From the IMG/VR virus record IMGVR_UViG_3300010396_000041: a stretch of DNA of 64,000 bases; one strand, given 5' to 3'. This DNA comes from a virus. Taxonomy: Duplodnaviria > Heunggongvirae > Uroviricota > Caudoviricetes. Below the pieces are notes generated by a model. The model worked only from the letters and a program-made list of their open reading frames with translations, had not been told where the DNA came from and ran no database searches. Shown here in pieces: positions 12,946 through 34,171 of this stretch (position 1 is the first letter of the stretch; the number at the start of each line of letters is the position of its first letter). A program made the position numbers and the translations under genes.

Positions 12946-12948
12946 AAG

Positions 12949-13379: not shown

Positions 13380-13589
13380 CTAGCTGGTAGGCCGGGAGAG
13401 CGCCTGATACGCCCGCTCCGCCCGCGCCCAGCGATCCAGCGGGTCAGAGTCAAGACCAAGCGCCTGATCCTGCGAGAGGAACCCGTCAGCGAGCAGCTTG
13501 GTCGCCGTATACCGCTGAAGGTCTTCCCACGTGGTCTCCGGCGGGTCAGGGTAGCGGCGCGCCTGCCAGCGGCCAGCCACCTCAGTCAC
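13380..13589 (-). CDS. hypothetical protein (69 aa)
   Basis: GTG start in a GTGA overlap with the upstream stop. Real part of ORF 13380..13715. Confidence 0.4.
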   Translation of the reverse strand: MTEVAGRWQARRYPDPPETTWEDLQRYTATKLLADGFLSQDQALGLDSDPLDRWARAERAYQALSRPTS

Positions 13590-13927
13590 TCGTCGCGTCC
13601 ATACGCGGCATCCCGAGCCTTGCGCAGCAGCCGGATCAGCCGGTTCAGCTGATCGCGCTCCAGGTTCGCGGTATACAGCTCGTCCTGCGGGGTCTCCGGC
13701 GGCGGAGGCCAGCACGTTGCCTGGTCGTAGTCTTCCTTCGACACCGGCGGGTAGGGCAGGATCGAGAGAGAGACCCCGCCACTGAGTTCCATGTCACTGG
13801 AGGACAACGTCGACCAGTGCAGCGTCAGGCGGGGGGAGGTGATCATCACCTTGCCGGTGACTTCGCCCAGCTCGTTCCAAGAGTTCGACTCTTCGCTGTG
13901 CGGCCATGCAATGACTTCTTTCGGCAT
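13586..13927 (-). CDS. hypothetical protein (113 aa)
   Basis: ORF track. Confidence 0.5.
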   Translation of the reverse strand: MPKEVIAWPHSEESNSWNELGEVTGKVMITSPRLTLHWSTLSSSDMELSGGVSLSILPYPPVSKEDYDQATCWPPPPETPQDELYTANLERDQLNRLIRLLRKARDAAYGRDE

Positions 13928-13937
13928 CGCGCCGAAC

Positions 13938-13988
13938 CTCCATCGCGGAGTAGAGGCAGCCTCGCGCCGCCTACTACTCCGCGATGGT
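13938..13988 (-). terminator. long inverted repeat CCATCGCGGAGTAG...CTACT(ACT)CCGCGATGG
   Basis: 14-bp stem between the genes ending at 14011 and starting at 13927. Confidence 0.4.
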
Positions 13989-14010
13989 ACTAGCTAGAGC
14001 TCACCCACGC

Positions 14011-14202
14011 TCAGGCTTCGAACTCTTCCCACTCGAAGCCGCAGCCAGGCTGAAGGCATCGCAGCAGGACGAGTACCTGCTTGTTCAGGGTCCGGCGGCT
14101 GACTGCGACGTTGCGGTTGTGCGAGCAGCCAGGTGCGGGCCTGGTCGACCCTGCGGGAGCCCCCGACCAGGTGTTCGGGGTCTCCTTCTTCCGCCAGCCC
14201 AT
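14011..14202 (-). CDS. hypothetical protein (63 aa)
   Basis: Real C-terminal part of ORF 14011..14436 from M79 (MGWRKKETPNTW...CLQPGCGFEWEEFEA). TGATG coupling. Confidence 0.45.
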   Translation of the reverse strand: MGWRKKETPNTWSGAPAGSTRPAPGCSHNRNVAVSRRTLNKQVLVLLRCLQPGCGFEWEEFEA

Positions 14203-14321
14203 CAGGCGTACTCCTCGTAGGTGCCCTGGCAGTCGTTGCACCGGTAAATGATGATCGTGTACCCGCCTTCGGTGCGGCGGGAGATCTCGGTGCGCGAGCC
14301 GGTGTGACGGCAGTTCGGCAT
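14202..14321 (-). CDS. zinc-ribbon mini-protein (39 aa)
   Basis: Manual: MPNCRHTGSRTEISRRTEGGYTIIIYRCNDCQGTYEEYA. TAG-ATG junction with the upstream gene. Confidence 0.4.
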   Translation of the reverse strand: MPNCRHTGSRTEISRRTEGGYTIIIYRCNDCQGTYEEYA

Positions 14322-14513
14322 CTAGATCGCCTCGTCCCAGTTCGAGCCGCAGGCCTGGCAGGTCATGTGCTTGATGCCCTTGGAGGCGTCGCGGCCGTAC
14401 TCGCTGACCGCGCCGACGTGGCTGTTGCCCTGGCACTGGGGCGGGGTGTACAGGTTCTCGGTGCCGGGGTTGCGGGTGTCGTAGTTGTTGTCGCCGCTGC
14501 GGTGCTTGGCCAT
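14322..14513 (-). CDS. hypothetical Cys-containing protein (63 aa)
   Basis: ORF track. Motif copy 49 nt upstream. Confidence 0.5.
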   Translation of the reverse strand: MAKHRSGDNNYDTRNPGTENLYTPPQCQGNSHVGAVSEYGRDASKGIKHMTCQACGSNWDEAI

Positions 14514-14562
14514 AGGTGGCCTCCCTTGTGGATCAGTGGTTTCTGATGGGCGTTCAGCCCTA

Positions 14563-14577
14563 TGAGTAATGTAGCAT
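14563..14577 (-). promoter_or_regulatory. conserved upstream motif TGAGTAATGTAGCAT (minus orientation)
   Basis: Upstream of ATG 14513. Confidence 0.55.
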
Positions 14578-14601
14578 CAGAACCCTGATCTTGCACGTAG
14601 G

Positions 14602-14677
14602 GCGGGCAGGCGGGACTCGAACCCGCAGAAGTACCACGCCAACTAAGGCGCCGCTCTACCAATTGAGCTACTGCCCG
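14602..14677 (-). tRNA. tRNA with atypical anticodon arm (apparent 6-nt loop TTAGTT); identity unresolved
   Basis: Acceptor CGGGCAG/CTGCCCG, D-arm TAGCTCAATTGGTAGAGC, T-arm GCGGG-TTCGAGT-CCCGC. Confidence 0.45.
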
Positions 14678-14680
14678 ACG

Positions 14681-14753
14681 TGCGCCTGAAGGGACTCGAA
14701 CCCCTGACTCGCCGCTTAGGACGCGGCAGCTCTATCCACTGAGCTACAGACGC
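14681..14753 (-). tRNA. tRNA-Arg (anticodon CCT)
   Basis: Acceptor GCGTCTG/CAGGCGC, loop GTCCTAA. Confidence 0.6.
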
Positions 14754-14758
14754 TTGCG

Positions 14759-14837
14759 TACGCTCGGCGGGAGTCGAACCCGCACCCCGAAGGAGCGGCT
14801 TTTGAGGCCGCCGTGTCTGCCGTTCCACCACGAGCGC
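14759..14837 (-). tRNA. tRNA-Leu (anticodon CAA), class II
   Basis: Loop CTCAAAA, variable arm TCCTTCGGGGT, T-arm GCGGG-TTCGACT-CCCGC. Confidence 0.6.
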
Positions 14838-14843
14838 CAGCGT

Positions 14844-14976
14844 CGGGCAGGGCAGGAGTTGAACCTGCCTCGGCGGGGCCAATCACCGCTGTCAACAACC
14901 GCAGGCCCCTATTCGGCCACTGCCATCCACCAGGACGCACCGGAATCGAACCGGCTACCGCCCACTCTGCCCGACG
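14844..14976 (-). ncRNA. about 132-nt tRNA-like structured element with two T-arm-like hairpins and paired termini GTCGGGCAG/CTGCCCGAC
   Basis: Contains GCAGG-TTCAACT-CCTGC and GCCGG-TTCGATT-CCGGT. No canonical cloverleaf found. Confidence 0.35.
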
Positions 14977-15049
14977 TAGGCGCTGAGAGACTTGAACTCC
15001 CGACATCCGGTTTGTAAGACCGGCGCTCTTCCAACTGAGCTAAGCACCC
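14977..15049 (-). tRNA. tRNA-Val (anticodon TAC)
   Basis: Acceptor GGGTGCT/AGCGCCT, loop CTTACAA. Confidence 0.6.
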
Positions 15050-15169
15050 ATCACCACCCACATTCTTAGCAGCACTTTGCGGGCCGCGCCCCACCATAGA
15101 CCTGGCCACGAAGACCTGGTCACAGGCGAGGTGCGAGTCTGCACCCGGAGGGTGGCCCCACCGTCCCGT

Positions 15170-15242
15170 TGGCGTAGAGGGAATTGCACCCCCGCGCAAC
15201 ACTGCTTATCAGGCAGCTGCTCTACTGCTGAGCTATACGCCT
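15170..15242 (-). tRNA. tRNA-Ile (anticodon GAT) with non-canonical T-loop TGCAATT
   Basis: D-arm TAGCTCAGCAGTAGAGC, loop CTGATAA. Confidence 0.5.
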
Positions 15243-15252
15243 TCGTCGTGCG

Positions 15253-15326
15253 TGGATGTGGGAGGAGTTGAACCTCCGACCCCTGCCTTATCAGGGCAGT
15301 GCTCTCACCACCTGAGCTACACATCC
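15253..15326 (-). tRNA. tRNA-Ile (anticodon GAT)
   Basis: Acceptor GGATGTG/CACATCC, loop CTGATAA. Confidence 0.6.
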
Positions 15327-15415
15327 GGGTGCGGGCGGCCGAGAGCTTCCGCGCGGTAGTCCTCTCGGTATCCGGCCCAGGCTTCGCCATGCACAGCTCA
15401 GCCAGCTTTCCCGCG

Positions 15416-15488
15416 TGGACGCTACAGGATTTGAACCTGCGACCCCCTGCTTGCAAGGCAGGTGCTCTACCAGCTGAGCTAAGCGCCC
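15416..15488 (-). tRNA. tRNA-Ala (anticodon TGC)
   Basis: Acceptor GGGCGCT/AGCGTCC with G3-U70, loop CTTGCAA. Confidence 0.65.
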
Positions 15489-15497
15489 TGGTGTGAC

Positions 15498-15553
15498 GGG
15501 CAGACGTTGCTTCCGTGGATGCGCCGTTCCCGGCTCATCGCCAACGTCTGCCC
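15498..15553 (-). other. 12-bp inverted repeat GGGCAGACGTTG...CAACGTCTGCCC with a 32-nt loop in a tRNA spacer
   Basis: Seen directly. Shares CAGACG with the hairpin at 16583-16620. Confidence 0.4.
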
Positions 15554-15557
15554 ATCG

Positions 15558-15631
15558 TGGCTGGAGGCGGGTTCGAACCGCCGACCCCTCGCTTTTCAGG
15601 CGAGTGCTCGTACCAACTGAGCTATCCAGCC
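15558..15631 (-). tRNA. tRNA-Phe (anticodon GAA)
   Basis: Acceptor GGCTGGA/TCCAGCC, loop CTGAAAA. Confidence 0.65.
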
Positions 15632-15733
15632 ATGCTGCGCCGCCTCTGATTCATGACGGATCGTCCCCCGCTCCTGGAAGGGGTGCCCACGCTGCCACAG
15701 GATCTCCCTGGACAACACAACAGCGGCGCTGCG

Positions 15734-15806
15734 CTGCCCACCGTGGATTCGAACCACGAACCGCCTGATTCAGAGTCAGGTGCGCTGCCAATTGCGCTAG
15801 CGGGCA
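15734..15806 (-). tRNA. tRNA-Gln (anticodon CTG)
   Basis: Loop CTCTGAA, T-arm CGTGG-TTCGAAT-CCACG. Confidence 0.6.
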
Positions 15807-15823
15807 TCGATATCAAGTTGTAG

Positions 15824-15898
15824 AGCTGATGGCCGGACTCGAACCGGCGACCGCCCGATTACGAGTCGGGTGCTCTAGGCCAGCTGAGCTACACCAGC
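15824..15898 (-). tRNA. tRNA-Thr (anticodon CGT)
   Basis: Acceptor GCTGGTG/CATCAGC, loop CTCGTAA. Confidence 0.6.
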
Positions 15899-15899
15899 G

Positions 15900-15972
15900 T
15901 CCGGATGGCAGGACTCGAACCTGCGATCTCCTGGTCCCAAACCAGGCGCCTTTCCAACTAGGCCACATCCAG
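15900..15972 (-). tRNA. tRNA-Pro (anticodon TGG)
   Basis: Anticodon stem CCTGG/CCAGG, loop TTTGGGA. Confidence 0.6.
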
Positions 15973-15995
15973 TCTTGCTATGTTTCTGTACTGCG

Positions 15996-16069
15996 TCGGG
16001 GTAGCCGGACTTGAACCGACGACCTCTTGTCCCCCAGACAAGCGCCCTACCAAGCTGGGCCATACCCCG
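15996..16069 (-). tRNA. tRNA-Pro (anticodon GGG)
   Basis: Acceptor CGGGGTA/TACCCCG, loop CTGGGGG. Confidence 0.6.
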
Positions 16070-16120
16070 GTGGAGCCGAAGGGGGCGGGGTTGCGCGCCC
16101 CGGCGCTTCCCCCCTCGACG

Positions 16121-16193
16121 CTCCCTCGGCAGGGCTCGAACCTGCGACCCACGGATTAACAATCCGTTGCTCTGCCAACTGAGCTACAAGGGA
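16121..16193 (-). tRNA. tRNA-Asn (anticodon GTT)
   Basis: Loop TTGTTAA. Confidence 0.6.
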
Positions 16194-16214
16194 ATGCTAT
16201 GAAGTTGGCAGGCC

Positions 16215-16312
16215 CGTTTCCCCTAACGCTGGTACGGCCAGCGCAAACAGGGCACGAACTGAGTTCGGACCTCAGCCTTCCGGCGTTCAAACCCCACGGG
16301 CCAACAGGGTCA
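16215..16312 (-). ncRNA. tRNA-like element without canonical T-arm (paired ends GGCCCG/CGGGCC, anticodon-like hairpin CTGAG-GTCCGAA-CTCAG reading CCG)
   Basis: Manual folding only. Confidence 0.3.
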
Positions 16313-16322
16313 TCGCCTTAGT

Positions 16323-16402
16323 GGCAGGAGCAGGATTCGAACCTGCGAAGCGTGAGCGATCGGTTTACAGCCGACTTCCATTGGCCACTCGGACACCCTG
16401 CC
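16323..16402 (-). tRNA. tRNA-Tyr (anticodon GTA), class II
   Basis: Acceptor GGCAGGG/TCCTGCC, loop CTGTAAA, variable arm CGCTCACGCTTCG. Confidence 0.6.
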
Positions 16403-16422
16403 ATTGCTGTTCAGTTGTAACG

Positions 16423-16493
16423 AGTCGCTGGCCGGATTTGAACCGGCGTCCACGGCTTTGCAGGCCGTTGCCTCGCCTCTCGGCCACAGCGAC
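16423..16493 (-). tRNA. tRNA-Cys (anticodon GCA)
   Basis: Acceptor GTCGCTG/CAGCGAC, loop CTGCAAA. Confidence 0.6.
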
Positions 16494-16503
16494 ACCTCTT
16501 GCG

Positions 16504-16576
16504 AGCCGAGGACGGGACTTGAACCCGCAACATCCTGATTGGAAGTCAGGCTCCCTACCAATTGGGCGACCTCGGC
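16504..16576 (-). tRNA. tRNA-Gly (anticodon TCC)
   Basis: Acceptor GCCGAGG/CCTCGGC, loop CTTCCAA. Confidence 0.65.
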
Positions 16577-16582
16577 GAGGTG

Positions 16583-16620
16583 AAGCAGACGTTCGCTGGG
16601 GTCAGCTGTCCTGGCTATCC
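16583..16620 (-). other. 10-bp inverted repeat GAAGCAGACG...CGTCTGCTTC in a tRNA spacer
   Basis: Seen directly. Confidence 0.35.
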
Positions 16621-16630
16621 GTCTGCTTCG

Positions 16631-16704
16631 CGGTCCTGACGGGACTTGAACCCGCGACCTCCACCTTGACAGGGTGGCGAGCACTCCAACTGCTCTACAG
16701 GACC
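16631..16704 (-). tRNA. tRNA-Asp (anticodon GTC)
   Basis: Acceptor GGTCCTG/CAGGACC, loop CTGTCAA. Confidence 0.65.
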
Positions 16705-16788
16705 TTGTGATGGCAGCACGGTGATCAGTGAACTGACGGAACAGCAGCGCCCTGGGATCTCTCCAGGTTCTACTCCGTACTGCCTTCG

Positions 16789-16864
16789 TAGCGGTGGTCG
16801 GATTCGAACCGACGATCTCAGGATTATGAGCCCTGCGGGGACGACCGAGCTCCCCTACACCGCG
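16789..16864 (-). tRNA. tRNA-Met (anticodon CAT); 1-72 mismatch and GGG in the anticodon stem hint at initiator-like features
   Basis: Loop CTCATAA, T-arm GTCGG-TTCGAAT-CCGAC. Confidence 0.55.
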
Positions 16865-16868
16865 TCGT

Positions 16869-16948
16869 TGGTGCCTGACCCCTACGAGAGTAGTCAGGCA
16901 CCGGGTCGGCTGGGAGCGCTTTTCCTCGGGCGAGGTTCGCTTTCGCCC
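16869..16948 (-). terminator. two tandem GC hairpins (GGTGCCTGAC...GTCAGGCACC and GGGCGAGGTTCGCTTTCGCCC)
   Basis: Directly downstream of the toxin-gene stop at 17003. Confidence 0.5.
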
Positions 16949-17002
16949 CGCTCCCTGCCGATGCCTCTATATTACGCTACTCGCTTCGGTGTACGCCAGT
17001 GA

Positions 17003-17239
17003 CTACGGGTGGGCGCGCTCAACCATACGGATGAACGTGATCGAGTCGGCGTGCAGAGCGAACACGGTGCGGTGCCGGTAGTCCTTGAAGTACACGAACC
17101 GCTTGTCGTCTCCCCGGGCGTCGTTGCCTGCCTGCCAGTACAGCGCGGTGATCTTCTCGACTACCGGGATGTTGTCCAGGCCGTGATGGACGTAGGAGAC
17201 CTCGAAGGTGTGCATGTCGCTGGCGACAGCTTCAGTCAT
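17003..17239 (-). CDS. YoeB/Txe-like (RelE superfamily) toxin (78 aa)
   Basis: Real part of ORF 17003..17296 from M20. ITALYWQAGNDARGDDKRFVY and HRTVFALHADSITFIRMVERAH resemble YoeB (DYLYWQETDKRIV; HRLVYAVTDDSLLIAACRYHY). AAGGAAAG RBS. Confidence 0.55.
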   Translation of the reverse strand: MTEAVASDMHTFEVSYVHHGLDNIPVVEKITALYWQAGNDARGDDKRFVYFKDYRHRTVFALHADSITFIRMVERAHP

Positions 17240-17249
17240 GAGCTTTCCT

Positions 17250-17534
17250 TCATGGTTGGTTGGTAGGCCACGACGGGTGCTCGTCTGACCAGTCATCTGG
17301 CAGCCGGTCCCAGCCGTGGGCGTCCTTGATCGCAGCGACCAGCATGCCGTACAGAGCGCCCGCAGGAGCCATGTGAAGCCCGCCAGAGGCTAGATGGATA
17401 TAGCGGGCTCTCTCAGCCTCGTAGAACGCCCTGTGAGAGCTCTCTAGGGCTACCGCATCCTGGGGCCCGTCTTCGGGCGGGAGACCCAGCGCGGCGAGGC
17501 GCTTGTGTCCCCTGACCTCTTCTGCCTGACTCAT
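17250..17534 (-). CDS. hypothetical protein (94 aa); position suggests a possible antitoxin
   Basis: Real part of ORF 17250..17594 from M21. No recognisable YefM/Phd motif. Confidence 0.4.
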   Translation of the reverse strand: MSQAEEVRGHKRLAALGLPPEDGPQDAVALESSHRAFYEAERARYIHLASGGLHMAPAGALYGMLVAAIKDAHGWDRLPDDWSDEHPSWPTNQP

Positions 17535-17666
17535 GGTTGCCACCTGCATCGGAGATGATAGATGTCCGGTTCTGTCATGGTTCAACCTGGGCACTGCCGC
17601 CTGCCGTAGGAGCAGCTTACGGAAACGCCCAGGTCGTCGTTATGCCACCTGCGGTTATGTGGCACC

Positions 17667-19097
17667 CTAGTTCTCGCAGCCGCACTTCGGGCAGCGGTCG
17701 TGAATCTCAGGCAGGTACGGGTGCTTGCACTCCTGACAGGTGATCGCCCCGTACCCCTCCATCCACGAGCCCTCCGTCAGCCCCGTCAGCTCCGTCGCCG
17801 CCCACACCAGCGCATCCATCCGGTCCGGGCTGCCCGAGAGGCCAGGCACGTAGGTGCACAGCTGGTCCTCCAGCTCCGGCAACGTCCCGACATGATGCAT
17901 ACGGCCCTGCTCGTACAGGGAAGAGATCGGCTCCGCCCTGATGGTCTTGCCCCTGGAGGCACGCACCTGCTTGTAAGGAACGTTACGGTCCACAGCCCGC
18001 AGAGTCCGGCCGATGTAGTCGCCGCCGTTGTTCACCTCAGCAACGATGCAGTCAGCTTTGAACTCCCGGTACACCCACAGGGCCCGGCGCATCACCTCGT
18101 CAGGGGTGCCCCGGAACGAGTAGTCACCCAGGACGTAGCCGTGATCACCCTGATGCCCGACCACGACGATGCCTGACTCGTCCGACTCATCGCCGGAGGT
18201 CACCGCAGGGTCGATCGCTACCACGACGCGGGTGAGGTTCGGGACCTCTTCCTTCCCGACCCGGTACTGGTCGATCACCGTGCGCGACCACAGGGCGCCC
18301 TCAATGTCCTCCAACAGCTCGCCTTCGAGCTCCTGGCGGCCCAGGCGGGAACCTTCGTAGCGATGCTTGAGCTCCGCCAGCGCTGTCGCCGAGAGGTTCA
18401 GCGCGTTCTCCCAGGTCGATCCCCGGGTGATGTGGACCGAGCCGTCCTTGCGGCCGAACAGGTCCCGGATCAGCTTCGTCGGGCGCGGGGTGGTGGTGAC
18501 CACGATGCGGGGTTTCTCGCCTTTACGCAGCGCAGGGACCAGTCCCTCATGCCAGGTGGCTTCGTAGCGCCAGGAGCCGAGCTCATCACACCAGGCGCCC
18601 CACAGGTTCGCGCCTCGGGCGCGTTCGGGCTGGTCGGCGGAGTAGCCGTAGATCACGGAGTTGTTCTTCAGCATGATCTGTAGCTCGTTGCGGCGGTAGT
18701 TCGCCAGCTGGTCCTCGCCGAGGGCTTTCAGCACGCCGGTGGAGCCTTCGAGGCAGGTCTTGCGCACGTCACGGAACGTGGGTGCGAACACCGCCCATTC
18801 GGAGCCGGGGAACTTCAGCGCCTGCTTCACCAGCCAGGTCGAGCCGACCAGGGACTTGCCGAATCCTCGGCCGGACATCAGCAGCCAGATCACGAAGTCG
18901 TCGTCTGGGCCTTGGCAGCCGCAGGTGAAGCCGTTGCCGTCAGGCTTGTGGTGGTCTGGGTGGTCGGGGGGTAGCTGCTTGGGTCGGAAGGTGTCGGGGT
19001 AGCGGGAAGCGCGAAGCACGCCGAGTCTGGCTTGTAGGGCCATGTACTCGGCGTGCTTCTGCTCTAGCAGGCGTTTAATCTCCCGTGGGTCATCCAC
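17667..19097 (-). CDS. terminase large subunit (476 aa)
   Basis: Terminase-like N-terminal region (SGRGFGKSLVGSTWLVKQALKFPGSEWAVFAPTF). C-terminal Zn ribbon (CQECK...CPKCGC). Confidence 0.9.
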   Translation of the reverse strand: MDDPREIKRLLEQKHAEYMALQARLGVLRASRYPDTFRPKQLPPDHPDHHKPDGNGFTCGCQGPDDDFVIWLLMSGRGFGKSLVGSTWLVKQALKFPGSEWAVFAPTFRDVRKTCLEGSTGVLKALGEDQLANYRRNELQIMLKNNSVIYGYSADQPERARGANLWGAWCDELGSWRYEATWHEGLVPALRKGEKPRIVVTTTPRPTKLIRDLFGRKDGSVHITRGSTWENALNLSATALAELKHRYEGSRLGRQELEGELLEDIEGALWSRTVIDQYRVGKEEVPNLTRVVVAIDPAVTSGDESDESGIVVVGHQGDHGYVLGDYSFRGTPDEVMRRALWVYREFKADCIVAEVNNGGDYIGRTLRAVDRNVPYKQVRASRGKTIRAEPISSLYEQGRMHHVGTLPELEDQLCTYVPGLSGSPDRMDALVWAATELTGLTEGSWMEGYGAITCQECKHPYLPEIHDRCPKCGCEN

Positions 19098-21112: not shown

Positions 21113-21178
21113 GTGGCTGCCTCCGTGGTTGATGGTGGGGTGCCGACCGGCGGTGCTGATCCGCCGGTCGGCGGTGGG

Positions 21179-21400
21179 TCATGGTGCGTAGATGATGCGG
21201 GTGGCGCCGCCATGTCCGTGGATCGTCTCGACGTCTTCGATGCTGGCGTAGATCGCGGTTGAGGCGACCGTGGTGCGCCAGCGTAGGGCGCAGGCACCGT
21301 CGGTGAAGATGATCCCTTCGGCGACGGTGCCGGTGCCGGAGGTGCCGGTGACGTCTTCCTCGCGGTAGAGGTAGAAGATCCGCATGCTGGGGTCGTTCAC
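21179..21400 (-). CDS. hypothetical protein (73 aa)
   Basis: ORF track (GTG start). Confidence 0.5.
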   Translation of the reverse strand: MNDPSMRIFYLYREEDVTGTSGTGTVAEGIIFTDGACALRWRTTVASTAIYASIEDVETIHGHGGATRIIYAP

Positions 21401-26754: not shown

Positions 26755-26769
26755 GGAGTAGCGTAGCAT
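26755..26769 (-). promoter_or_regulatory. conserved motif variant GGAGTAGCGTAGCAT
   Basis: 34 nt upstream of ATG 26720. Confidence 0.55.
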
Positions 26770-27225: not shown

Positions 27226-27240
27226 TGAGTAGCGTAGCAT
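27226..27240 (-). promoter_or_regulatory. conserved motif TGAGTAGCGTAGCAT
   Basis: 37 nt upstream of ATG 27189. Confidence 0.6.
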
Positions 27241-27267
27241 GACGGCCCATCAGATGGCACTACAACG

Positions 27268-27300
27268 GAAAGACCCCGCAGTTGGCCAGTTGGCCAACTG
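27268..27300 (-). terminator. 15-bp perfect palindromic hairpin CCCCGCAGTTGGCCA GT TGGCCAACTGCGGGG
   Basis: Follows the stop at 27381. Confidence 0.55.
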
Positions 27301-27380
27301 CGGGGCCCTACCCGGGGTCGGCTGAAGGGAGGAGCAGCCCGACCCATCTACCGCCGAGACGTCTAACCGGCGGGAACCTA

Positions 27381-27728
27381 TCAGGGAGTTACCAGCCCAA
27401 GATCCACCACACTGAACCCACGCGGCCCAGCCTGCTGCATCTCCGTGCCTTCACTCACCCGAGCCTGATAATCAACCGCGTGCGCCCCAATCGAAAGCAA
27501 CTGCATGTAGATCAGCCCATACTCCGTCGGGGCCTTCACCACCTCCGTGCCATCGATCACGAACCGCACCCACGCGTCCTCACCCAGACCCAGCACATAG
27601 CCCTGGAGCTGAACGACAAACCCCAAGCCCGTGATGGTCAGCGGACCGCCCACCAGCGAAACCCAGGCATCGTCCGTGACCAGAGTGCTGGTCGTCGAAG
27701 CGAAGGCGACATCAGTCAGCAGCGCCAT
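27381..27728 (-). CDS. hypothetical protein (115 aa)
   Basis: ORF track. Coupled to the upstream gene (TGATCATG). Confidence 0.5.
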   Translation of the reverse strand: MALLTDVAFASTTSTLVTDDAWVSLVGGPLTITGLGFVVQLQGYVLGLGEDAWVRFVIDGTEVVKAPTEYGLIYMQLLSIGAHAVDYQARVSEGTEMQQAGPRGFSVVDLGLVTP

Positions 27729-27730: not shown

Positions 27731-29758
27731 TCAGATCCGCATACCGGGATCGCGCGAGTCACGCGGGTCGCGGTCGTAGTCATCGCCAGCGCGCGAGGAA
27801 GCAGCGTACGAACGCGCCCGGTTCCAGTTCACGGACCGGTTCGAGTCCTCGATCACGACGTTCACGTACTGGCGCGGGTCATCGCGGTCGCGCTCACGCC
27901 GCCCGCCACACCCGCAGGGGTCTTCCTTCTTGCAGCAGCACGCCAGCTGCAACTCCAGCGTGTCGATCTTGGTCTTCAGCTGCGTCTCGGTCGCCAGACC
28001 CCGCGCAAAGCGCCGCTCAGCGCCTTCCTCGTCGAGGTGCCGGATAAGGCTGCGGGTGCGGTCCTCATCGTCGCGGGAACGGCGCTCGAAGCCGCGCATC
28101 TCATCCAGGTTGCGGTCAGCCAGAGCACGCAGCAGGTCGTGCGTGCGGTCCTCGCGGTCCCGGAGGTAAAGACGCGTCTCCAGGTCCGTCTTGGTGTTGT
28201 GCTCCCGCGTGCGGTCACCCTGGTGCCGCACCTCGTCGCTGATGTGGATCAGCCGCTCCGAGGTACGCCGGTCGTGGTCACCCAGCGACTCGGACAGTTC
28301 CTCCAGGTTGTGGGTGACCTGCCGCTCAATCTGGTGCTCGATGCGGCGCTCAGAGTCATCCAGGTTCTTGGTGGAACGACGCTCGAACGCATCCAGGTTG
28401 TGCGTCTGACGCCGCTCGGCGTCGTCCGCGTTCTTGGTGAGCCGCAGCTCCTCCTGGTAGATGTCGCGTTCGATGTTGCGCTGGACCATGTCCAGGCGCT
28501 CCTGATCGCGCCGTTCTGCGTCACGCTGGTAGTTGCTCAGGCGCCGCTCAGCGTCACCAAGCTGTTCCTGCGTTTCCTCACCCACGTGCCGCACCACGCC
28601 GTCGATCCGGCGTTCGGTGTCACACAGGTCCTTCTCCAGCGCACCGAACGCCTCGGCGTTCTCCTCGCCGTAGTGGTCGACCTTGTCACCAAGGCGCCGC
28701 TCGGAGTTGGTGATGTGCTCTGCCAGCCGCTCGCGGCCGAAAGCACCTTCACGGCGGTCCTCGTCGATATCGCGTTCGATCCGGCGTTCCGCGTTGGCAA
28801 GGTGCTCGTTGGTGTGACCGAAGCCGTGTACCGACTCGCGGCGACCGCCATCGATGTTGCCATCCAGCCAGCGGGCGTTGGCGTCAGCACCTTCGTGCAG
28901 GTAACGGGTGTTCGCACCGTTCTGCTCCGCCAGGCGCCACGCGTTCGCGTCCTGACCCGAGTGCAGCCAGCGGGCGTTGGCATCCTGTCCGGTGTGCAGC
29001 CAGCGCGCGCTATCGCCGACCTCGTCTTCGACGTCGTCGATCTCACGGGAAAGGTAGCGGGTGTTGGCATCGACGTTCGCGTCAGTGCGACGCTGCCCGT
29101 CACCAAGCCAGCGGGCGCTCTCCTCGACGCGGTGATCGGTGCGGCGCTGGCCTTCGTGCAGCCAGCGGCCGTTGGCGTTGACGTCCTTCTCTACGTCATC
29201 GACTTCACGCGCCACCCACCAGGCGTTCTGGTTGACGTTTGCGTCGGTCTGGCGCTGGCCGTCGCCGAGCCAGCGGGCTTCACTGTCGGACTGGCGCGAA
29301 GCGCCGAGGAATCCGTGATCGACGTTGCGGTCGGTCGCGGCCTGGCCCTTGGCGGTGCCGTAGAAGCCTGCTGCGGTCTCGGCGCTCATCGCGCGGTGCT
29401 CGCCCGACAGGAACCGGCCGTTGGCATCGACGTTACGGTCGGTCGCCGCCTGGCCTGCGGCGGTGTTCTGGAAGCCTCGGTCGATCTCGTTGTCGAGGAA
29501 CAGCGCGTCGCGGTTGATCTCAGCAGACAGGTGCTGGGTGTTACGGTTCGCCTCGGCGTCGATGTAGCCGGTGCTGTCGGCGATGGCACGGTTGGTGTGC
29601 AGGAATTCGTTGTCGACGTTGCGGAAGCCAGCGTCGACGTTGTTGTCCGTGTGGCGCTGGCCTTCAAGAATCAGGGCAGTGTCATAGGAGGGTACGGGTA
29701 CGGGGATGGGCACCGGGTGGTTGTGGTGGTGCCAGGGGCCCGGCATGGAATCGCTCAC
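27731..29758 (-). CDS. large D/E/R/N-rich tandem-repeat protein (about 675 aa) with C-terminal Cys cluster CCCKKEDPCGCGG
   Basis: About 10 repeats of ..ARWL..GQRRTD.NVD.N.. then ERR/coiled-coil-like repeats. N-content argues against a GC-driven spurious frame. Antisense + ORF 28037..29836 is junk. Start GTG 29758 (GGAGG 8 nt upstream) or ATG 29746; the ORF track's TTG 29827 start is less likely. Confidence 0.6.
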   Translation of the reverse strand: MSDSMPGPWHHHNHPVPIPVPVPSYDTALILEGQRHTDNNVDAGFRNVDNEFLHTNRAIADSTGYIDAEANRNTQHLSAEINRDALFLDNEIDRGFQNTAAGQAATDRNVDANGRFLSGEHRAMSAETAAGFYGTAKGQAATDRNVDHGFLGASRQSDSEARWLGDGQRQTDANVNQNAWWVAREVDDVEKDVNANGRWLHEGQRRTDHRVEESARWLGDGQRRTDANVDANTRYLSREIDDVEDEVGDSARWLHTGQDANARWLHSGQDANAWRLAEQNGANTRYLHEGADANARWLDGNIDGGRRESVHGFGHTNEHLANAERRIERDIDEDRREGAFGRERLAEHITNSERRLGDKVDHYGEENAEAFGALEKDLCDTERRIDGVVRHVGEETQEQLGDAERRLSNYQRDAERRDQERLDMVQRNIERDIYQEELRLTKNADDAERRQTHNLDAFERRSTKNLDDSERRIEHQIERQVTHNLEELSESLGDHDRRTSERLIHISDEVRHQGDRTREHNTKTDLETRLYLRDREDRTHDLLRALADRNLDEMRGFERRSRDDEDRTRSLIRHLDEEGAERRFARGLATETQLKTKIDTLELQLACCCKKEDPCGCGGRRERDRDDPRQYVNVVIEDSNRSVNWNRARSYAASSRAGDDYDRDPRDSRDPGMRI

Positions 29759-29917
29759 GTGAGATGCCTCCGGAAAGAGATGTGCCGTGGCTCGGAGGTA
29801 GCCAGGCGCTGGCACATTATCACGCAAAGAATGTAACGATCTTGGGATTGAGTGAACCCTTCGTGGACAGCTTAGAACCCCAGCCCGAAGGCTGGGGTTG
29901 CGCAGGTCAGAGGCCTA

Positions 29918-30409: not shown

Positions 30410-30424
30410 TGAGTAACGTAGCAC
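30410..30424 (-). promoter_or_regulatory. conserved motif TGAGTAACGTAGCAC
   Basis: 40 nt upstream of ATG 30369. Confidence 0.55.
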
Positions 30425-31131: not shown

Positions 31132-31464
31132 CTACACCTCCGAATTCAGCAGCTGAGCACGGCTCGCCGCCTCCAGCCGCGCCTTAAGCACCTGGTCTTC
31201 CCAATCCTCAGCGCCATCCGGGACGCTCGCCACCACCACCCGGCCCAGCACCTCACCCTCGTCCGTCACCCGCTGCACCACAATCAGCATCGCCTGACGC
31301 GTCGAGATATCAGCCACCTGCCACTGCGCCGACCGCTTGACCTCCGCACGCTTCACCGCCTCCACCCGCGTCTGGCCACGCACGGCCCGGCCGATGACAA
31401 GGATCGTCACGGCCAGGCCGACGCACAGCAGCCCGATGGACATGGCTGCCAAAACTACATCCAT
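31132..31464 (-). CDS. membrane-anchored protein (110 aa)
   Basis: ORF track. N-terminal TM helix. Confidence 0.5.
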   Translation of the reverse strand: MDVVLAAMSIGLLCVGLAVTILVIGRAVRGQTRVEAVKRAEVKRSAQWQVADISTRQAMLIVVQRVTDEGEVLGRVVVASVPDGAEDWEDQVLKARLEAASRAQLLNSEV

Positions 31465-32456
31465 TACTTCGCGCCCACCGCGAGACCAGCACCCGGCGCA
31501 TACGTCGTGATACCCGGCGGCAGCGCCTGCTCCTCAGCGATCACCCCGCACACCGGGCACGCGCTGTAGCCCTGCTGAGTGATCTCGTTCGCCTGTGCCG
31601 TGAGCTTCGCAGCGTTCACCTTCGCCTGCGCCGTGGAGACCTGAGCGAACGCGGCCTGAGCCGAGTCGATCGCCGACTGGACCCCACCAGGCAGCGTCAC
31701 CGTCGAGATCGTGAACCGCAGACCCGTCAGGTAGTTACCGCCGAGCTGGGACTTCAAGTCGCTCGCCAGCTCGGTGTTGATCGTGTTCTGGATGTTCGCC
31801 AGATTCCCGTTGCTCGACGCGCTCGCCACCGCCGCCACCGACGTGTTCGTCGCGTTCTTCACCAGCGCACACGCAGGGTCCACGTCAGCGCAGCTGACCG
31901 CGCTCATCGCGGTGCGCAGCTCGTTCTGGAGCGTCGGGCGAACCACCGCGTTGATGAACGCGTTCCAGCCGTCGCTCCCGTCGTACGGGTGCAGCGCCTT
32001 CCCATCCCACACGTAGGTCTGGGTACCGTACGAGTCATCGAACGTACCGAGCACATCGTGCTTGAGGTTCAGCGAGTAGTACAACGTTCCCTGGATCGTG
32101 ATCTCCACCCCGTCGCTCGACGGGACGTTGATCGAGTCGGAGGAGTTCGTCTGCCCCTGCTTCGGGTCAGCGCTGATCGTGTACACCTGCTGCTGCGCCG
32201 GGTAGATGTGCTCCGTGCTGTAAAGCCCGGTGTAGGTCATTCCGGCGCCCGGGTCCAAGAACCCCCGGACGTTCTGGTTGGCGAAGCCGCCGTTGCGCAG
32301 CACCGCGATGTGCCCGCCGTCGATCGAGTCGAGCGACCCGACCGCCGCGAAGCAGACCGACAGGCCCACGATCAGTCCGGTGGCGCCGAGGACCGATCCC
32401 ACGCCCCACCGAGCCACACGGCCCGGGGTCCACTCCTTGTCATAGCTCATGGTCAA
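31464..32456 (-). CDS. membrane-anchored/exported hypothetical protein (330 aa)
   Basis: ORF track. N-terminal TM helix; S/T/N/Q-rich body. Confidence 0.6.
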   Translation of the reverse strand: MTMSYDKEWTPGRVARWGVGSVLGATGLIVGLSVCFAAVGSLDSIDGGHIAVLRNGGFANQNVRGFLDPGAGMTYTGLYSTEHIYPAQQQVYTISADPKQGQTNSSDSINVPSSDGVEITIQGTLYYSLNLKHDVLGTFDDSYGTQTYVWDGKALHPYDGSDGWNAFINAVVRPTLQNELRTAMSAVSCADVDPACALVKNATNTSVAAVASASSNGNLANIQNTINTELASDLKSQLGGNYLTGLRFTISTVTLPGGVQSAIDSAQAAFAQVSTAQAKVNAAKLTAQANEITQQGYSACPVCGVIAEEQALPPGITTYAPGAGLAVGAK

Positions 32457-32515: not shown

Positions 32516-34129
32516 CTAGAACGGCCAGGTGCCGTTACGACCCGCCTCCAGCAGCGGAATCAGGCGGAACGCCTGGTCCGTCAGCCCGCCGAAGGTGTGC
32601 CGGTTCTCACTGCCCGACGGAGCGTGCCCGTAGCGGTAGCCCGCCAGGTTCCAGGTGTAGACCGGCACCGTCTTCGGGACCGCTGCCGTCACATCCCAGG
32701 CGCCGTGGTAATCCGCCTGCTCGTCCGTCAGGATGATCACCCGGTCGTGTGCCTTGTAGTGCGTCGAGACCGCCTGCTGCGTCGAGGTACCACCCAGGTC
32801 GGTGAACCGGTCGATCAGCTTGAGCACCGAGTCGCCCGTGCGGAAACGCACCTCATGCGAGGAGGAGCCGAACTGAACGAGGTCAGCCTTCTCCGCGCGC
32901 AGCGCCAGCGCCGTACCGAACAAGGCTGCCGAGTCGGCGCGGTTCAACTGCGTCTTCTCGGAGATCCCGCCGAACATCGATCCGGAGCGGTCTACCAGCA
33001 CCAGAGTGCGGCCCGGCAAGCTCGGGACGTTCTCCAGCGACATGTTCAGCGCCTGCTCCAGCGGCCACGCCCAGCGCAGCCCGGAGTGCTTGTACGCGGC
33101 GAGGAACCGGAACGGGAACTGGCGCGACTTGCGGACCTCGTCGAGGTTGGCGATCCGCGCGGCGACCGCGTTCGCGGCGCCTTCGCTGATCTTCTTCTCG
33201 TCGAAGTTACGCAGGTTCCTGATCAAGGCCATATAGCCCATGGTCGGGATCTGCTTCTCCCAGGTGGCGCCGTCCATCGCGCCCTGCTTCCACCCGGCCG
33301 TCGCCTCCCAGGTCATGCCAGCCTTCGCCAGCTGCTCCGAAGCGTCGTCCGAGGCGAGCAGAGCCGCCTTCTCCTCGGCGTCGAGGGACGTCAGCTCCTT
33401 ACGGGCGGTGATGGTCTTGAGCCGTGCCGACGCCGGGTTCTCCGGGTCCTCACGGTCGTGACGGCGGTCGATCGCGTGCTCGAACAGGTCACCCTGCCAG
33501 GCCTTACCGACCGCCGGGCCCGGGTGCACCAGCTCCAGCACATCGCCCATACGCACCGCGTCGCCCTTGCTGTCGTACTTGAGCAGGCTGCGCTCGTTGT
33601 ACAGGCGCCGGGTCGCGTCGCCGAGACCGCGCTTGACCGGCTTCGGCATGGCCTTGCCGTACTTCGAGATCCAGTACGCCAGCAGCTCGGCAGGCTCGTC
33701 GGCGCGCTGGCAGGCAGCGTCGATCGCGCGGCGGTTGAAGCCGCGCACCTCGAAGACGGTGCCGACTCCCTCGCCGTCCTCGACCACCTTCGCGTCGATA
33801 CGGGCCTTCACCAGCTCGGCGGCCATGACCAGAGAAGCCGAGCGCATGTTGGCCTCGTTGCGCAGCCACGGGATCATCCGGACCAGCCAGTCCGGGTCCT
33901 CCAGCGCCACCTGGTGCACCAGCTGCTCGAAACGCGCGTCGCGCTGGTCGGCGCGCTCGTAGTAGGTGTTCTCGCCCACCATGTTGGTCACCGCGAGCAG
34001 GAACAGCTCAGACTTCGCGTCGCGGGCGAAGCCGGGGGCGCCGTTGAAGGTACGGCCGGTCGGGGTCTTCGCGGTCTTCACCGGGGAAGTGGTACGCGGC
34101 TTGGCGGTGGCGGTGTTGAACTTCGACAT
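32516..34129 (-). CDS. rsr: Ro60/Rsr ortholog (TROVE domain + C-terminal vWA/MIDAS), about 537 aa
   Basis: MSKFNT...TNMVGENTYYE TROVE-type N-terminus. C-terminal LVLVDRSGSM MIDAS. ATG 34129 with GAGGGGAG RBS; alternative GTG 34165. Confidence 0.85.
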   Translation of the reverse strand: MSKFNTATAKPRTTSPVKTAKTPTGRTFNGAPGFARDAKSELFLLAVTNMVGENTYYERADQRDARFEQLVHQVALEDPDWLVRMIPWLRNEANMRSASLVMAAELVKARIDAKVVEDGEGVGTVFEVRGFNRRAIDAACQRADEPAELLAYWISKYGKAMPKPVKRGLGDATRRLYNERSLLKYDSKGDAVRMGDVLELVHPGPAVGKAWQGDLFEHAIDRRHDREDPENPASARLKTITARKELTSLDAEEKAALLASDDASEQLAKAGMTWEATAGWKQGAMDGATWEKQIPTMGYMALIRNLRNFDEKKISEGAANAVAARIANLDEVRKSRQFPFRFLAAYKHSGLRWAWPLEQALNMSLENVPSLPGRTLVLVDRSGSMFGGISEKTQLNRADSAALFGTALALRAEKADLVQFGSSSHEVRFRTGDSVLKLIDRFTDLGGTSTQQAVSTHYKAHDRVIILTDEQADYHGAWDVTAAVPKTVPVYTWNLAGYRYGHAPSGSENRHTFGGLTDQAFRLIPLLEAGRNGTWPF

Positions 34130-34171
34130 GGTGGTGCTCCCCTCTTTCTGGGTGGCAGAGGGCACACGAAA

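What the first reader, a model, noticed from the sequence alone, without database searches (positions are those of the whole stretch)
27731..29758. About 675-aa D/E/R/N-rich protein built from two tandem-repeat families plus a C-terminal CCCKKEDPCGCGG cluster, with its own AT-rich -10-like box
Seen in sequence. About ten repeats of ..ARWL(G/H)xGQRRTDxNVDxN.. are followed by an ERR-punctuated repeat region. The frame is Asn/Asp-rich, which is unlike GC-driven spurious ORFs, and the antisense + ORF is junk. Upstream it lacks the 15-bp motif but has GTGATAATGTG at about 29800-29820 and a leaderless-like arrangement. I do not recognise the repeat. Inference: a highly charged repeat scaffold, possibly a nucleic-acid mimic/decoy, internal virion protein or anti-defence factor.
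Basis: partly seen in the sequence, partly recalled or inferred. Interest (0 to 1): 0.6.

Follow-up and report, generated by a model that had tools for sequence, protein, structure and literature searches.

The report
Long coiled-coil phage fibre protein
The gene is real and encodes a very long, proline-free helical rod, most likely a fibre on the phage particle that is capped by a small TNF/C1q-like protein from the next gene; it is a new protein family, but of a familiar kind.

Summary
The ORF is real: 27731-29758 on the minus strand, 675 aa from a GTG with GGAGG 8 nt upstream. It is conserved and under purifying selection. It has no match in Pfam, PHROGs, NCBIfam, PADLOC, PDB sequences or 50,697 cultured-phage records. 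An exhaustive profile search of 1.84 billion proteins gave 20 relatives, all from metagenomes.

The two "repeat families" are one alpha-helical periodicity of 11 and 18 residues (3.61-3.66 residues per hydrophobic turn). Residues 28-606 contain no proline. AlphaFold2 predicts almost continuous helix. Indels among 18 relatives cluster at 4, 7, 11, 18, 22 and 29 residues, which keep helical phase. Lengths run from 361 to 930 aa.

Best reading (confidence about 0.5): a virion fibre made of a coiled-coil shaft with a separately encoded head. A DNA-mimic or anti-defence role has no support. The gene is not leaderless.

The parts
29876..29899 (-). Terminator-like hairpin (AACCCCAGCC-TTCG-GGCTGGGGTT) that closes the upstream gene. 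It marks the 5' boundary of the cassette.
   Evidence: Seen in sequence. The fold gives a 10-bp GC-rich stem, z = -2.1. There is no clear U-tract.
29813..29825 (-). GCGTGATAATGTG, an extended -10-like box (TGATAATGT at 29814-29822). It is a candidate host-type promoter for the two-gene unit.
   Evidence: Single copy in the window. The consensus TGnTAWWnT occurs 2 times against 2.4 expected. No -35 was scored. Only its position supports it: it is intergenic, just after a hairpin and about 55 nt before the start.
29767..29771 (-). Shine-Dalgarno GGAGG, 8 nt upstream of GTG 29758.
   Evidence: Sequence.
27731..29758 (-). Rod protein CDS: 675 aa, 77.8 kDa, pI 5.25.
   Evidence: The frame is intact in all 16 further distinct loci read. 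It is identical in four independent assemblies of the same phage.
29678..29758 (-). Residues 1-27: Pro/His-rich N-terminal cap (MSDSMPGPWHHHNHPVPIPVPVPSYDT). It contains the family motif PV(L/I)PVV.
   Evidence: Alignment. AF2 gives coil at pLDDT below 50. Some relatives carry an extra domain of 50-140 aa in front of this motif.
28829..29677 (-). Residues 28-310: polar-core helical array of 18-mers and 11-mers (xRWLxxGQRxTDxNVDxN; ARWLHxGQDAN).
   Evidence: Hydrophobic period 3.61, reached by 0 of 300 shuffles, and no Pro. Unit positions. AF2 predicts helix at pLDDT 45-68.
28199..28828 (-). Residues 311-520: ERR-punctuated hendecad helix.
   Evidence: Hydrophobic period 3.66, reached by 0 of 300 shuffles. 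ERR spacings are 11, 22, 29 and 33. AF2 predicts one helix for 367-606.
27941..28198 (-). Residues 521-606: conserved core of the family (ELETRLYLRDREDRTHDLxRALADRNLDEMRGFERRSRDDEDRTR...) and the end of the helix.
   Evidence: Most invariant columns lie here. AF2 confidence is highest here, pLDDT 75-88.
27902..27940 (-). Residues 607-619: Cys cluster CCCKKEDPCGCGG, directly after the helix end.
   Evidence: Sequence. It varies among relatives, from none to seven Cys. The nearest match is CCCGTSDPCGCGG in P0003.
27734..27901 (-). Residues 620-675: non-helical tail with the conserved RINITLDD-like strand (YVNVVIED) and the C-terminal ...DPGMRI-COOH.
   Evidence: Alignment. The [M/Q][T/S/R][V/I]-COOH ending co-occurs with the downstream partner gene in 10 of 10 loci against 0 of 5.
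27381..27728 (-). 115-aa partner gene, 2 nt after the rod's stop codon. It has a TNF/C1q-like jelly-roll fold.
27258..27314 (-). Strong intrinsic terminator that closes the two-gene unit: an 18-bp stem (CCCCGCAGTTGGCC...) followed by UCUUUCCGUUGU.
   Evidence: Free energy -45.6 kcal/mol, z = -5.6, reached by 0 of 200 shuffles. Sequence.

Best explanation
The gene encodes the shaft of an accessory virion fibre.

Inferred structure:
- About 580 residues (28-606) form one long alpha-helix that packs with copies of itself, most likely as a parallel trimer. The coiled coil is non-heptad (11- and 18-residue repeats) with a largely polar, Arg/Asp-rich seam. It would be roughly 85 nm long if fully extended.
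- The invariant C-terminal segment (residues 521-606) is proposed as the assembly nucleus or docking site.
- The Cys cluster at the helix end is proposed as an inter-chain cross-link or metal site.
- The extreme C-terminal peptide (...GM[T/S/R][V/I]-COOH) is proposed to recruit a trimer of the separately encoded 115-aa TNF/C1q-like protein as the fibre head. Which end faces the virion is not resolved.
- Fibre length changes in evolution by gain and loss of helix-phase-preserving units.

In this phage the two genes form a self-contained unit (hairpin, -10-like box, SD, rod, partner, strong terminator). The unit sits among genes driven by a different, phage-specific promoter-like motif.

Shown: reality of the gene, periodicity, absence of proline, predicted helix, partner fold, tail-partner co-occurrence, gene neighbourhoods.

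Inferred: oligomer state, rod-partner binding, presence in the virion, adhesion function.
For: 1. The gene is real and selected. There are 9 word-index hits and 20 exhaustive hits. The frame is intact in every locus read. Differences are mostly third-position or synonymous.

2. The protein has rod properties.
- Autocorrelation peaks fall at lags 4, 7, 11, 18, 22, 29, 33 and 36.
- The hydrophobic period is 3.61-3.66 in 16 of 18 relatives and never 3.5.
- Both halves are significant, reached by 0 of 300 shuffles, and residues 28-606 contain no Pro.
- AF2 predicts helix for residues 27-606 with few breaks.
- Pairwise indel lengths peak at 4, 7, 11, 18, 22, 29, 33, 36, 40 and 44.

3. Length is not tied to genome size. 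Rods run from 361 to 930 aa in phages whose complete contigs are all about 104-109 kb. This argues against a scaffold or a ruler and fits a fibre.

4. The partner has the fold of trimeric fibre heads.

5. Partner presence tracks the rod's C-terminal peptide in 10 of 10 loci against 0 of 5. This includes two within-subgroup contrasts: the window against P0003/L019, and P0024/L025 against P0006/L018 and P0023/L024.

6. In the nine distinct post-terminase loci read or listed (L001/L002 with its 104-kb contig, L003, L006, L007/L008, L009, L010, L012, L017 and the P0033 contig), the gene lies after the large terminase and before the portal.
- In most of these it precedes a protein homologous to window 6895-9528.
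- That window protein is 38% identical to an annotated minor tail protein of Streptomyces phage Frankenweenie, E = 3e-48.

7. Arg stays at 13-15% and Lys at 1-2% in phages from 46 to 69% GC. The composition is therefore selected, not driven by GC.
Against: - There is no sequence, profile or family link to any known fibre.
- In the window, L018, L024 and L025 the gene lies outside the terminase-portal block. It sits among RNA-repair-type or accessory genes (TROVE, thioredoxin, RNA ligase, MazG).
- In the window the gene carries a host-type -10-like box, not an obvious late signal.
- The partner is more conserved (58-80% identity) than the rod (35-56%), which is unusual for a receptor-binding tip.
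- The hydrophobic seam is weak: 21% of residues are L, I, V, M, F, W or Y.
- Foldseek against PDB gave only marginal E-values (2e-3 or worse), with carbohydrate-binding jelly rolls mixed in.
- AF2 confidence for the rod is low (mean pLDDT 58).
- The co-occurrence counts are not phylogenetically independent.
Confidence: 0.5

Rival explanations
1. An intracellular coiled-coil protein. It could be a filament or scaffold that reorganises the host cell, like the non-heptad cytoskeletal proteins FilP and Scy of actinobacteria. It could also organise the neighbouring RNA-handling proteins.
For: - In the window and in L018 the gene lies about 3 kb downstream of a TROVE/Ro60-like gene, in the same order and strand. 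These two genes are the only detectable matches between the two loci.
- In L018, L024 and L025 an RNA-ligase gene follows within one gene.
- The window copy has a host-type -10-like box and lacks the phage motif.
- Non-heptad coiled coils are typical of actinobacterial cytoskeletal proteins (own knowledge; pointer).
Against: - The exhaustive profile search found no FilP-, Scy- or DivIVA-like relatives.
- The linked partner has a fold used almost only in extracellular or virion trimeric heads.
- Most relatives place the gene inside the terminase-portal block, beside a minor-tail homologue.
- A cysteine cluster at the helix end fits an oxidising, extracellular setting.
Confidence: 0.15
2. A morphogenetic helper: a capsid scaffolding protein or a tape-measure-like ruler.
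For: The protein is long, helical and highly charged. In most relatives it is encoded in the packaging and head-gene region, between terminase and portal, with a protease/major-head-like gene after the portal. Tape-measure proteins are known to carry 11-residue aromatic periodicity (own knowledge).
Against: - Length varies 2.6-fold (361-930 aa) among phages with near-identical genome sizes of 104-109 kb.
- There are no hydrophobic or transmembrane segments.
- There are no PHROG or Pfam tape-measure or scaffold hits.
- The gene is not next to tail-chaperone-type genes.
- The gene moves about as an independent cassette, with an optional TNF-like partner and an optional N-terminal domain.
Confidence: 0.08
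3. One reading: an acidic nucleic-acid mimic, decoy or anti-defence factor.
For: Net charge is -38 and D+E is 21%. Anti-defence-type small genes occur in these genomes, for example Acb5-like in the window phage and Tad2-like or Acb2/Tad1-like in relatives.
Against: - The protein also has 15% Arg+Lys, and its hydrophobic seam is regular.
- It is a 580-residue helix, far larger than known DNA mimics.
- It has no PADLOC, Pfam or NCBIfam match.
- Its length varies in helix-phase units, and it is coupled to a TNF-like partner.
Confidence: 0.05
4. A hydrophilic 11-mer-repeat protectant or lipid-binding amphipathic helix (LEA-3, apolipoprotein or perilipin-like).
For: The protein has 11-residue periodicity and very hydrophilic composition. 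A weak Apolipoprotein match was seen for P0001: E = 0.068, 13 bits.
Against: - That match is far below the Pfam cut-off of 90 bits.
- Trp, Leu and Cys are conserved, and there is an invariant 45-residue core.
- The hydrophobic stripe is narrow, not a broad amphipathic face.
- The protein is linked to a TNF-like partner.
Confidence: 0.04

Closest known systems
Tail needle of P22-like phages, Sf6/HS1 type (gp26 family)
   Same: A phage protein with a trimeric coiled-coil shaft that ends in a TNF-like jelly-roll knob (PMC3741392). The P22 needle has polar core layers that bind ions (PMC13580157). The knob is modular and is swapped between lineages.
   Different: - Shaft and knob are one chain of about 280 aa with heptad periodicity.
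- The N-terminal domain plugs the portal channel.
- Here the shaft is 2-3 times longer, with 11/18-residue periodicity.
- Here the head is a separate gene product.
- There is no sequence or profile similarity.
Phage T4 fibritin (wac whiskers)
   Same: A non-essential, roughly 50-nm parallel trimeric coiled-coil fibre. It has a small N-terminal anchor and a C-terminal element that nucleates trimerisation (own knowledge).
   Different: Fibritin has heptad segments separated by loops, a fused 30-residue foldon instead of a separate jelly-roll protein, and no Cys cluster. There is no sequence relation.
Chlamydia Pgp3; BclA and C1q family; PRD1 P5; adenovirus fibre; reovirus sigma1
   Different: In all of these the head is fused to the stalk. 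Sequence identity to the partner is 5-14%. The stalks differ in type or periodicity.
Stalks of trimeric autotransporter adhesins
   Same: Long extracellular trimeric coiled coils with many polar core residues. Some use hendecad or pentadecad units (PMC13580157). Repeat number varies.
   Different: They are bacterial outer-membrane proteins with head, neck and anchor domains, none of which is present here. No YadA_stalk or other Pfam match was found for the rod.
Tape measure proteins
   Same: Long helical phage proteins with reported 11-residue aromatic periodicity (own knowledge).
   Different: See the rival explanation: no family hit, wrong neighbourhood, and length uncoupled from genome size.

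Membership tests
Non-heptad (hendecad / 18-residue) alpha-helical coiled coil (structural class) | Hydrophobic periodicity near 11/3 = 3.67 or 18/5 = 3.60 rather than 3.5, sustained over a long helix | tested here: met
   Best periods are 3.61 (residues 28-310) and 3.66 (residues 311-606), each reached by 0 of 300 shuffles. Power at 3.50 is about 0. Autocorrelation peaks at 11, 18, 22 and 29.
Non-heptad (hendecad / 18-residue) alpha-helical coiled coil (structural class) | Continuous helix without breakers | tested here: met
   No Pro in residues 28-606. AF2 predicts helix for 27-606 with five short breaks, at low to moderate confidence.
Non-heptad (hendecad / 18-residue) alpha-helical coiled coil (structural class) | Assembly of two or more helices with knobs-into-holes packing, and a defined oligomer state | not testable with these tools
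TNF/C1q-like trimeric head (the 115-aa partner) | Compact jelly-roll beta-sandwich of TNF/C1q topology | tested here: met
TNF/C1q-like trimeric head (the 115-aa partner) | Sequence membership in Pfam C1q or TNF families | tested here: not met
   No Pfam, PHROG or NCBIfam hit. No PDB sequence hit.
TNF/C1q-like trimeric head (the 115-aa partner) | Homotrimer seated on a trimeric stalk | not testable with these tools
   Inferred only, from the fold and from co-occurrence with the rod's C-terminal peptide.
P22/Sf6 tail needle (gp26) | Sequence homology and the N-terminal portal-plug domain | tested here: not met
   No Pfam or PHROG hit for the rod. No tblastn match in 50,697 phage records.
T4 fibritin | C-terminal foldon and fibritin sequence family | tested here: not met
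   No Pfam or PHROG hit. The C-terminus is instead a Cys cluster plus a 56-residue tail.
Tape measure protein | Family hit, hydrophobic segments, and a position after tail-chaperone genes | tested here: not met
   No PHROG or Pfam tape-measure hit. Neighbours are terminase, small ORFs, a minor-tail homologue and portal. No hydrophobic stretch is visible in the sequence.
LEA_4 / apolipoprotein 11-mer amphipathic repeats | Pfam match above threshold | tested here: not met
   Only Apolipoprotein at E = 0.068 and 13.3 bits, against a cut-off of 90, and for P0001 only. Nothing was found for the window protein.
Known anti-defence or defence-associated proteins | Profile match | tested here: not met
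   PADLOC gave 0 families for the rod, the partner and two homologues. PADLOC covers defence systems, so this is only weak evidence against an anti-defence role.

The most novel reading that the evidence does not exclude
The rod is not a virion part. It is a phage-made intracellular filament or scaffold, analogous to non-heptad bacterial cytoskeletal coiled coils. It would work with the neighbouring Ro60/TROVE and RNA-repair genes, or remodel the host cell. The TNF-like protein would then be an optional cap or adaptor.
Probability: 0.12. Interest if true: 0.75.

Novelty: new variant of a known kind. Interest (0 to 1): 0.45.

Why it matters
If the model is right, this is a previously unrecognised fibre family in an uncultured clade of roughly 105-kb soil phages.

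It would differ from known fibres in three ways:
- The stalk is a very long, polar-core, non-heptad coiled coil rich in Arg and Asp.
- The TNF/C1q-type head is supplied in trans and appears to be recruited by a four-residue C-terminal peptide.
- The whole unit moves between genome positions as a cassette.

This would give coiled-coil structural biology a natural example of a long polar-core hendecad rod. It would also offer a simple plug-in logic for fibre heads. The rod family would be a marker for host-adhesion modules in metagenomic phages, where current annotation gives only "hypothetical protein".

Tried and rejected
**Searches with the rod that found nothing**
- Megablast and tblastn against INPHARED phages: no match.
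- Pfam, PHROGs, NCBIfam and PADLOC: nothing.
- Family profile against PDB sequences: nothing meaningful.

**Searches with the neighbours that found nothing**
- Partner profile against PDB sequences: nothing.
- 877-aa neighbour against PDB sequences: nothing.
- The 122-aa neighbour of relatives against phages: no match.

**Other tests that led nowhere or rejected an idea**
- Tandem Repeats Finder reports only a 33-bp unit of 2.1 copies, so the repeats are old at DNA level.
- The -10-like box is not a recurring motif.
- The optional N-terminal domain of P0001, P0004, L009 and P0033 has no homologue by tblastn in phages or by the word-index search.
- That domain shows no hhalign similarity to the N-terminus of a neighbouring fibre-like protein of L003. 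My recalled resemblance to tail-fibre W...W motifs is therefore not supported.
- The 129-aa gene after P0002's rod is not a partner homologue. It belongs to the conserved 122-129-aa "LLPNNYT" family, phrog_1084.
- A rod-partner fusion by frameshift or readthrough is rejected. The stop-to-start gaps are 2, 12, 16, 19 and 20 nt, in different relative frames.
- No repeat-number variation was seen within the population. The gene is identical in four assemblies.
- The rod model was not fold-searched, because its pLDDT of 58 would give meaningless matches.
- My recollection that window 6895-9528 carries a pectate-lyase-type motif (YGAKGDG) was not confirmed by Pfam. The support for its tail role is a 38%-identity match to an annotated minor tail protein.
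Full report
**Setting**

The window is part of a high-GC (about 65%) phage genome.
- It encodes a portal fused to a long extension (2598-6884, minus strand), a large terminase (17667-19097, minus strand), a TROVE/VWA Ro60-like protein (32516-34165, minus strand) and an SPFH protein.
- The best portal match among cultured phages is only about 30% identical.
- The same phage was assembled as contigs of about 106.5 kb in several soil-type metagenomes. The gene studied here is identical in four of them.

Yes.
- ORF 27731-29827(-) is open.
It aligns with the M[AST]DS N-termini of homologues.
- The product has 675 aa, with R 13.8, D 11.4, E 9.6 and N 6.4 %, net charge -38 and pI 5.25.
- The xRWL/GQRxTD units, the ERR units and the CCCKKEDPCGCGG cluster (residues 607-619) are all present.
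- The minus frame is the conserved one: 601 against 273 bits for the antisense frame in L003.
- Differences from ten relatives are mostly third-position or synonymous, for example 135 synonymous against 192 non-synonymous codons with L003.
- The frame is intact in every related locus read.

**What the repeats are**

The two "families" are one helical periodicity.
- Self-similarity peaks at lags 4, 7, 11, 18, 22, 29, 33 and 36, with z up to 7.9.
- Strong hydrophobic residues recur with period 3.61 in residues 28-310 and 3.66 in residues 311-606. Each value was reached by 0 of 300 shuffles, and there is no power at 3.5.
- Residues 28-606 contain no proline. All 11 prolines lie in the first 27 residues or in the tail.
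- AlphaFold2, using the 10-sequence alignment, predicts helix from 27 to 606 with a few short breaks. Mean pLDDT is 58, rising to 75-88 in residues 500-600.
- Across 18 family members, internal indel lengths pile up at 4, 7, 11, 18, 22, 29, 33, 36, 40 and 44 residues. These lengths keep an alpha-helical seam in phase. Periodic sequences bias gap placement, and the pairs are not independent.
- At DNA level only a 33-bp unit of 2.1 copies is detectable, so the array is old.

**The family**
- A word-index search found 9 homologues of 372-930 aa.
- An exhaustive HMMER profile search of 1.84 billion representative proteins found only 20 at E <= 1e-3. The last few are unrelated repeat proteins.
- There are no hits in Pfam, PHROGs, NCBIfam, PADLOC, PDB sequences or INPHARED.
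- The architecture is shared, in this order:
  1. an optional N-terminal domain;
  2. a PV(L/I)PVV motif;
  3. a variable helical array;
  4. an almost invariant core (ELETRLYLRDREDRTHDLxRALADRNLDEMRGFERRSRDDEDRTR);
  5. the helix end, with a Cys or Cys/His cluster that ranges from none to seven Cys;
  6. an RINITLDD-like strand;
  7. a variable tail.
- Arg stays at 13-15% and Lys at 1-2% in members from phages of 46-69% GC.

**The neighbour is the main clue**

Two nucleotides after the stop codon starts a 115-aa gene (27381-27728).
- It has 13 homologues at 58-100% identity.
- Its AlphaFold2 model is confident (pLDDT 87.7) and all beta.
  - EDA, C1q and many TNF ligands;
  - cyanophage tail-fibre and mycobacteriophage TM4 receptor-binding domains.
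- BFVD matches are C1q-collagen, minor tail, tail-fibre and host-specificity proteins.
- Foldseek against PDB is weaker, with best E = 2e-3 and carbohydrate-binding jelly rolls among the hits. I therefore call the fold TNF/C1q-like rather than claim family membership.

**Linkage between the rod tail and the partner**

Every rod followed by a partner homologue ends in [M/Q][T/S/R][V/I]-COOH. The ten cases are:
- the window (GMRI);
- L003, L006, L008, L010, L012, L013 and L014 (GMTV);
- L009 (GMSV);
- L025 (SQTV; its partner is 41-45% identical).

The five rods without a partner end differently: L001 (NVNI), L017 (GNIG), L018 (TDVA), L019 (GVGVG) and L024 (SSLA).

Two contrasts lie within subgroups:
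- P0003/L019 shares the window's Cys cluster and tail up to NWNRxRS, but lacks both the terminal peptide and the partner.
- P0024/L025 has both, whereas its relatives P0006 and P0023 have neither.

The most divergent member, P0033 (ending RMSV), is followed by two small genes. That arrangement is seen elsewhere only when the partner is present, but no DNA was available to check. A fused product by frameshift or readthrough is unlikely, because the inter-gene gaps (2-20 nt) fall in different frames.

**Neighbourhoods**

Nine distinct loci were read or listed: L001/L002 with its 104-kb contig, L003, L006, L007/L008, L009, L010, L012, L017 and the P0033 contig. In the loci with gene calls (L003, L006, L008, L009) the usual order is:
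1. a small-terminase-position gene;
2. the large terminase (phrog_2);
3. a few small genes;
4. the rod;
5. the partner, where present;
6. a conserved 122-129-aa gene (phrog_1084);
7. a large variable protein;
8. the portal;
9. a small gene;
10. a roughly 900-aa protein with protease and major-head-like matches.

The large variable protein is homologous to window 6895-9528. That window protein is 38% identical to an annotated minor tail protein of Streptomyces phage Frankenweenie, E = 3e-48.

In the window the pair instead lies about 8.3 kb upstream of the terminase. In three low-GC relatives (L018, L024, L025) the rod also lies upstream of the terminase, next to RNA ligase, MazG and thioredoxin genes. 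In L018, as in the window, it lies about 3 kb downstream of a TROVE gene. The position is therefore not fixed, which weakens the structural-module argument.

**The cassette in the window**
- The upstream gene ends with a hairpin at 29876-29899.
- Then come the unique box GCGTGATAATGTG (29813-29825), GGAGG, the rod and the partner.
- An 18-bp-stem terminator with a U-rich tail follows: free energy -45.6 kcal/mol, z = -5.6.
- The 13-mer TGCTACGYTACTC occurs 24 times in the window against 0.06 expected. It flanks the cassette at 30411-30423 and 27227-27239 but is absent inside it.
- The -10-like box has no statistical support. The arrangement is not leaderless.

**Interpretation**

The anatomy has these elements:
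- a very long, phase-constrained helical rod;
- an invariant C-terminal segment;
- a Cys cluster at the helix end;
- a terminal peptide that co-varies with a TNF/C1q-like neighbour;
- an optional extra N-terminal domain;
- a usual position beside a minor-tail gene.

This matches trimeric fibres built as a stalk plus a jelly-roll head. Known examples are the Sf6/HS1 tail needle (PMC3741392), Pgp3, BclA/C1q, PRD1 P5, the adenovirus fibre and reovirus sigma1. Polar-core and hendecad-containing stalks are known from trimeric autotransporter adhesins and from the P22 needle (PMC13580157).

Two things are new here. The head is encoded separately, and the stalk is exceptionally long, non-heptad and Arg/Asp-rich.

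The 2.6-fold length range, in phages with the same genome size, argues against a scaffold or a ruler. I put about 0.5 on a virion fibre. Which end is virion-proximal is unresolved. The conserved C-terminal part and the conserved partner could equally be the anchor, with the variable N-terminus pointing outward.

The main rival is an intracellular coiled-coil role suggested by the TROVE/RNA-repair neighbourhoods, at about 0.15.

**Verdict**

This is a genuine and well-described observation. It is a new, narrowly distributed protein family, most likely a new variant of the coiled-coil-plus-TNF-like-head fibre theme. Interest is moderate at 0.45. The function is not demonstrated. The decisive tests are multimer prediction, biophysics of the recombinant rod, and virion proteomics or EM.

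Noticed in passing
window, 24 sites, e.g. 27227-27239(-), 30411-30423(-), 26756-26768(-), 52707-52719(+): The 13-mer TGCTACGYTACTC occurs 24 times against 0.06 expected. In most copies a GTGCC lies about 17-19 nt upstream. A short hairpin of variable sequence follows the motif, and a GGAG-type ribosome-binding site and start codon lie 35-50 nt downstream. It looks like a phage-specific two-part promoter. Relatives encode a GerE/Sigma70_r4_2 protein.
   Followed up: partly
window 32516-34165(-) and 31464-32456(-); L018 4837-6447: A TROVE+VWA (Ro60-like) gene sits next to an SPFH/Band-7 gene. A 49%-identical TROVE gene lies upstream of the rod homologue in a 46.6%-GC phage contig, in the same order and strand. 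These two genes are the only detectable matches between the two loci.
   Followed up: partly
window 2598-6884(-): The portal protein is 1428 aa. The portal domain covers residues 141-519 and is followed by a long C-terminal extension. Relatives carry a NUDIX domain in the same protein.
   Followed up: no
window 6895-9528(-): Residues 334-784 of this 877-aa protein are 38% identical to an annotated minor tail protein of Streptomyces phage Frankenweenie. This hints at an actinobacterial host. There is only a weak DUF5907 match.
   Followed up: partly
window 17667-19097(-) and 9500-17600: The window's large terminase (Terminase_6N/6C, 476 aa) shows no tblastn similarity to the 538-aa terminase (phrog_2) of close relatives. 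About 8 kb of small ORFs separate it from the tail and portal genes, some on the plus strand with their own 13-mer motif. This suggests a terminase replacement and a local rearrangement.
   Followed up: no
window about 21178-21384(-) (from the L020 gene call): A 68-aa gene has a precomputed Pfam Acb5 (PF26761) hit. Relatives carry Tad2-like and Acb2/Tad1-hairpin small genes near the terminase.
   Followed up: no
L015/L016 (JGI contig Ga0310811_10000041, 216,021 bp): The relative's locus occurs twice, 107.9 kb apart, on one contig. This is a head-to-tail concatemer assembly. It implies a circularly permuted or terminally redundant genome of about 108 kb.
   Followed up: no
L018 11507-12307: In a low-GC relative the gene after the rod encodes a 266-aa protein. 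It has a signal-peptide-like N-terminus and an HELGHAIGLDH zinc-protease motif. A thioredoxin gene lies upstream of the rod.
   Followed up: no
P0037: One weak hit of the family profile (E = 2e-4) is a low-GC protein with an HTH-like N-terminus and about 12 copies of an 18-residue CVD(G/R/E)N(V/I) unit. It may be a similar VD-x-N repeat arrived at independently, or a chance match.
   Followed up: no
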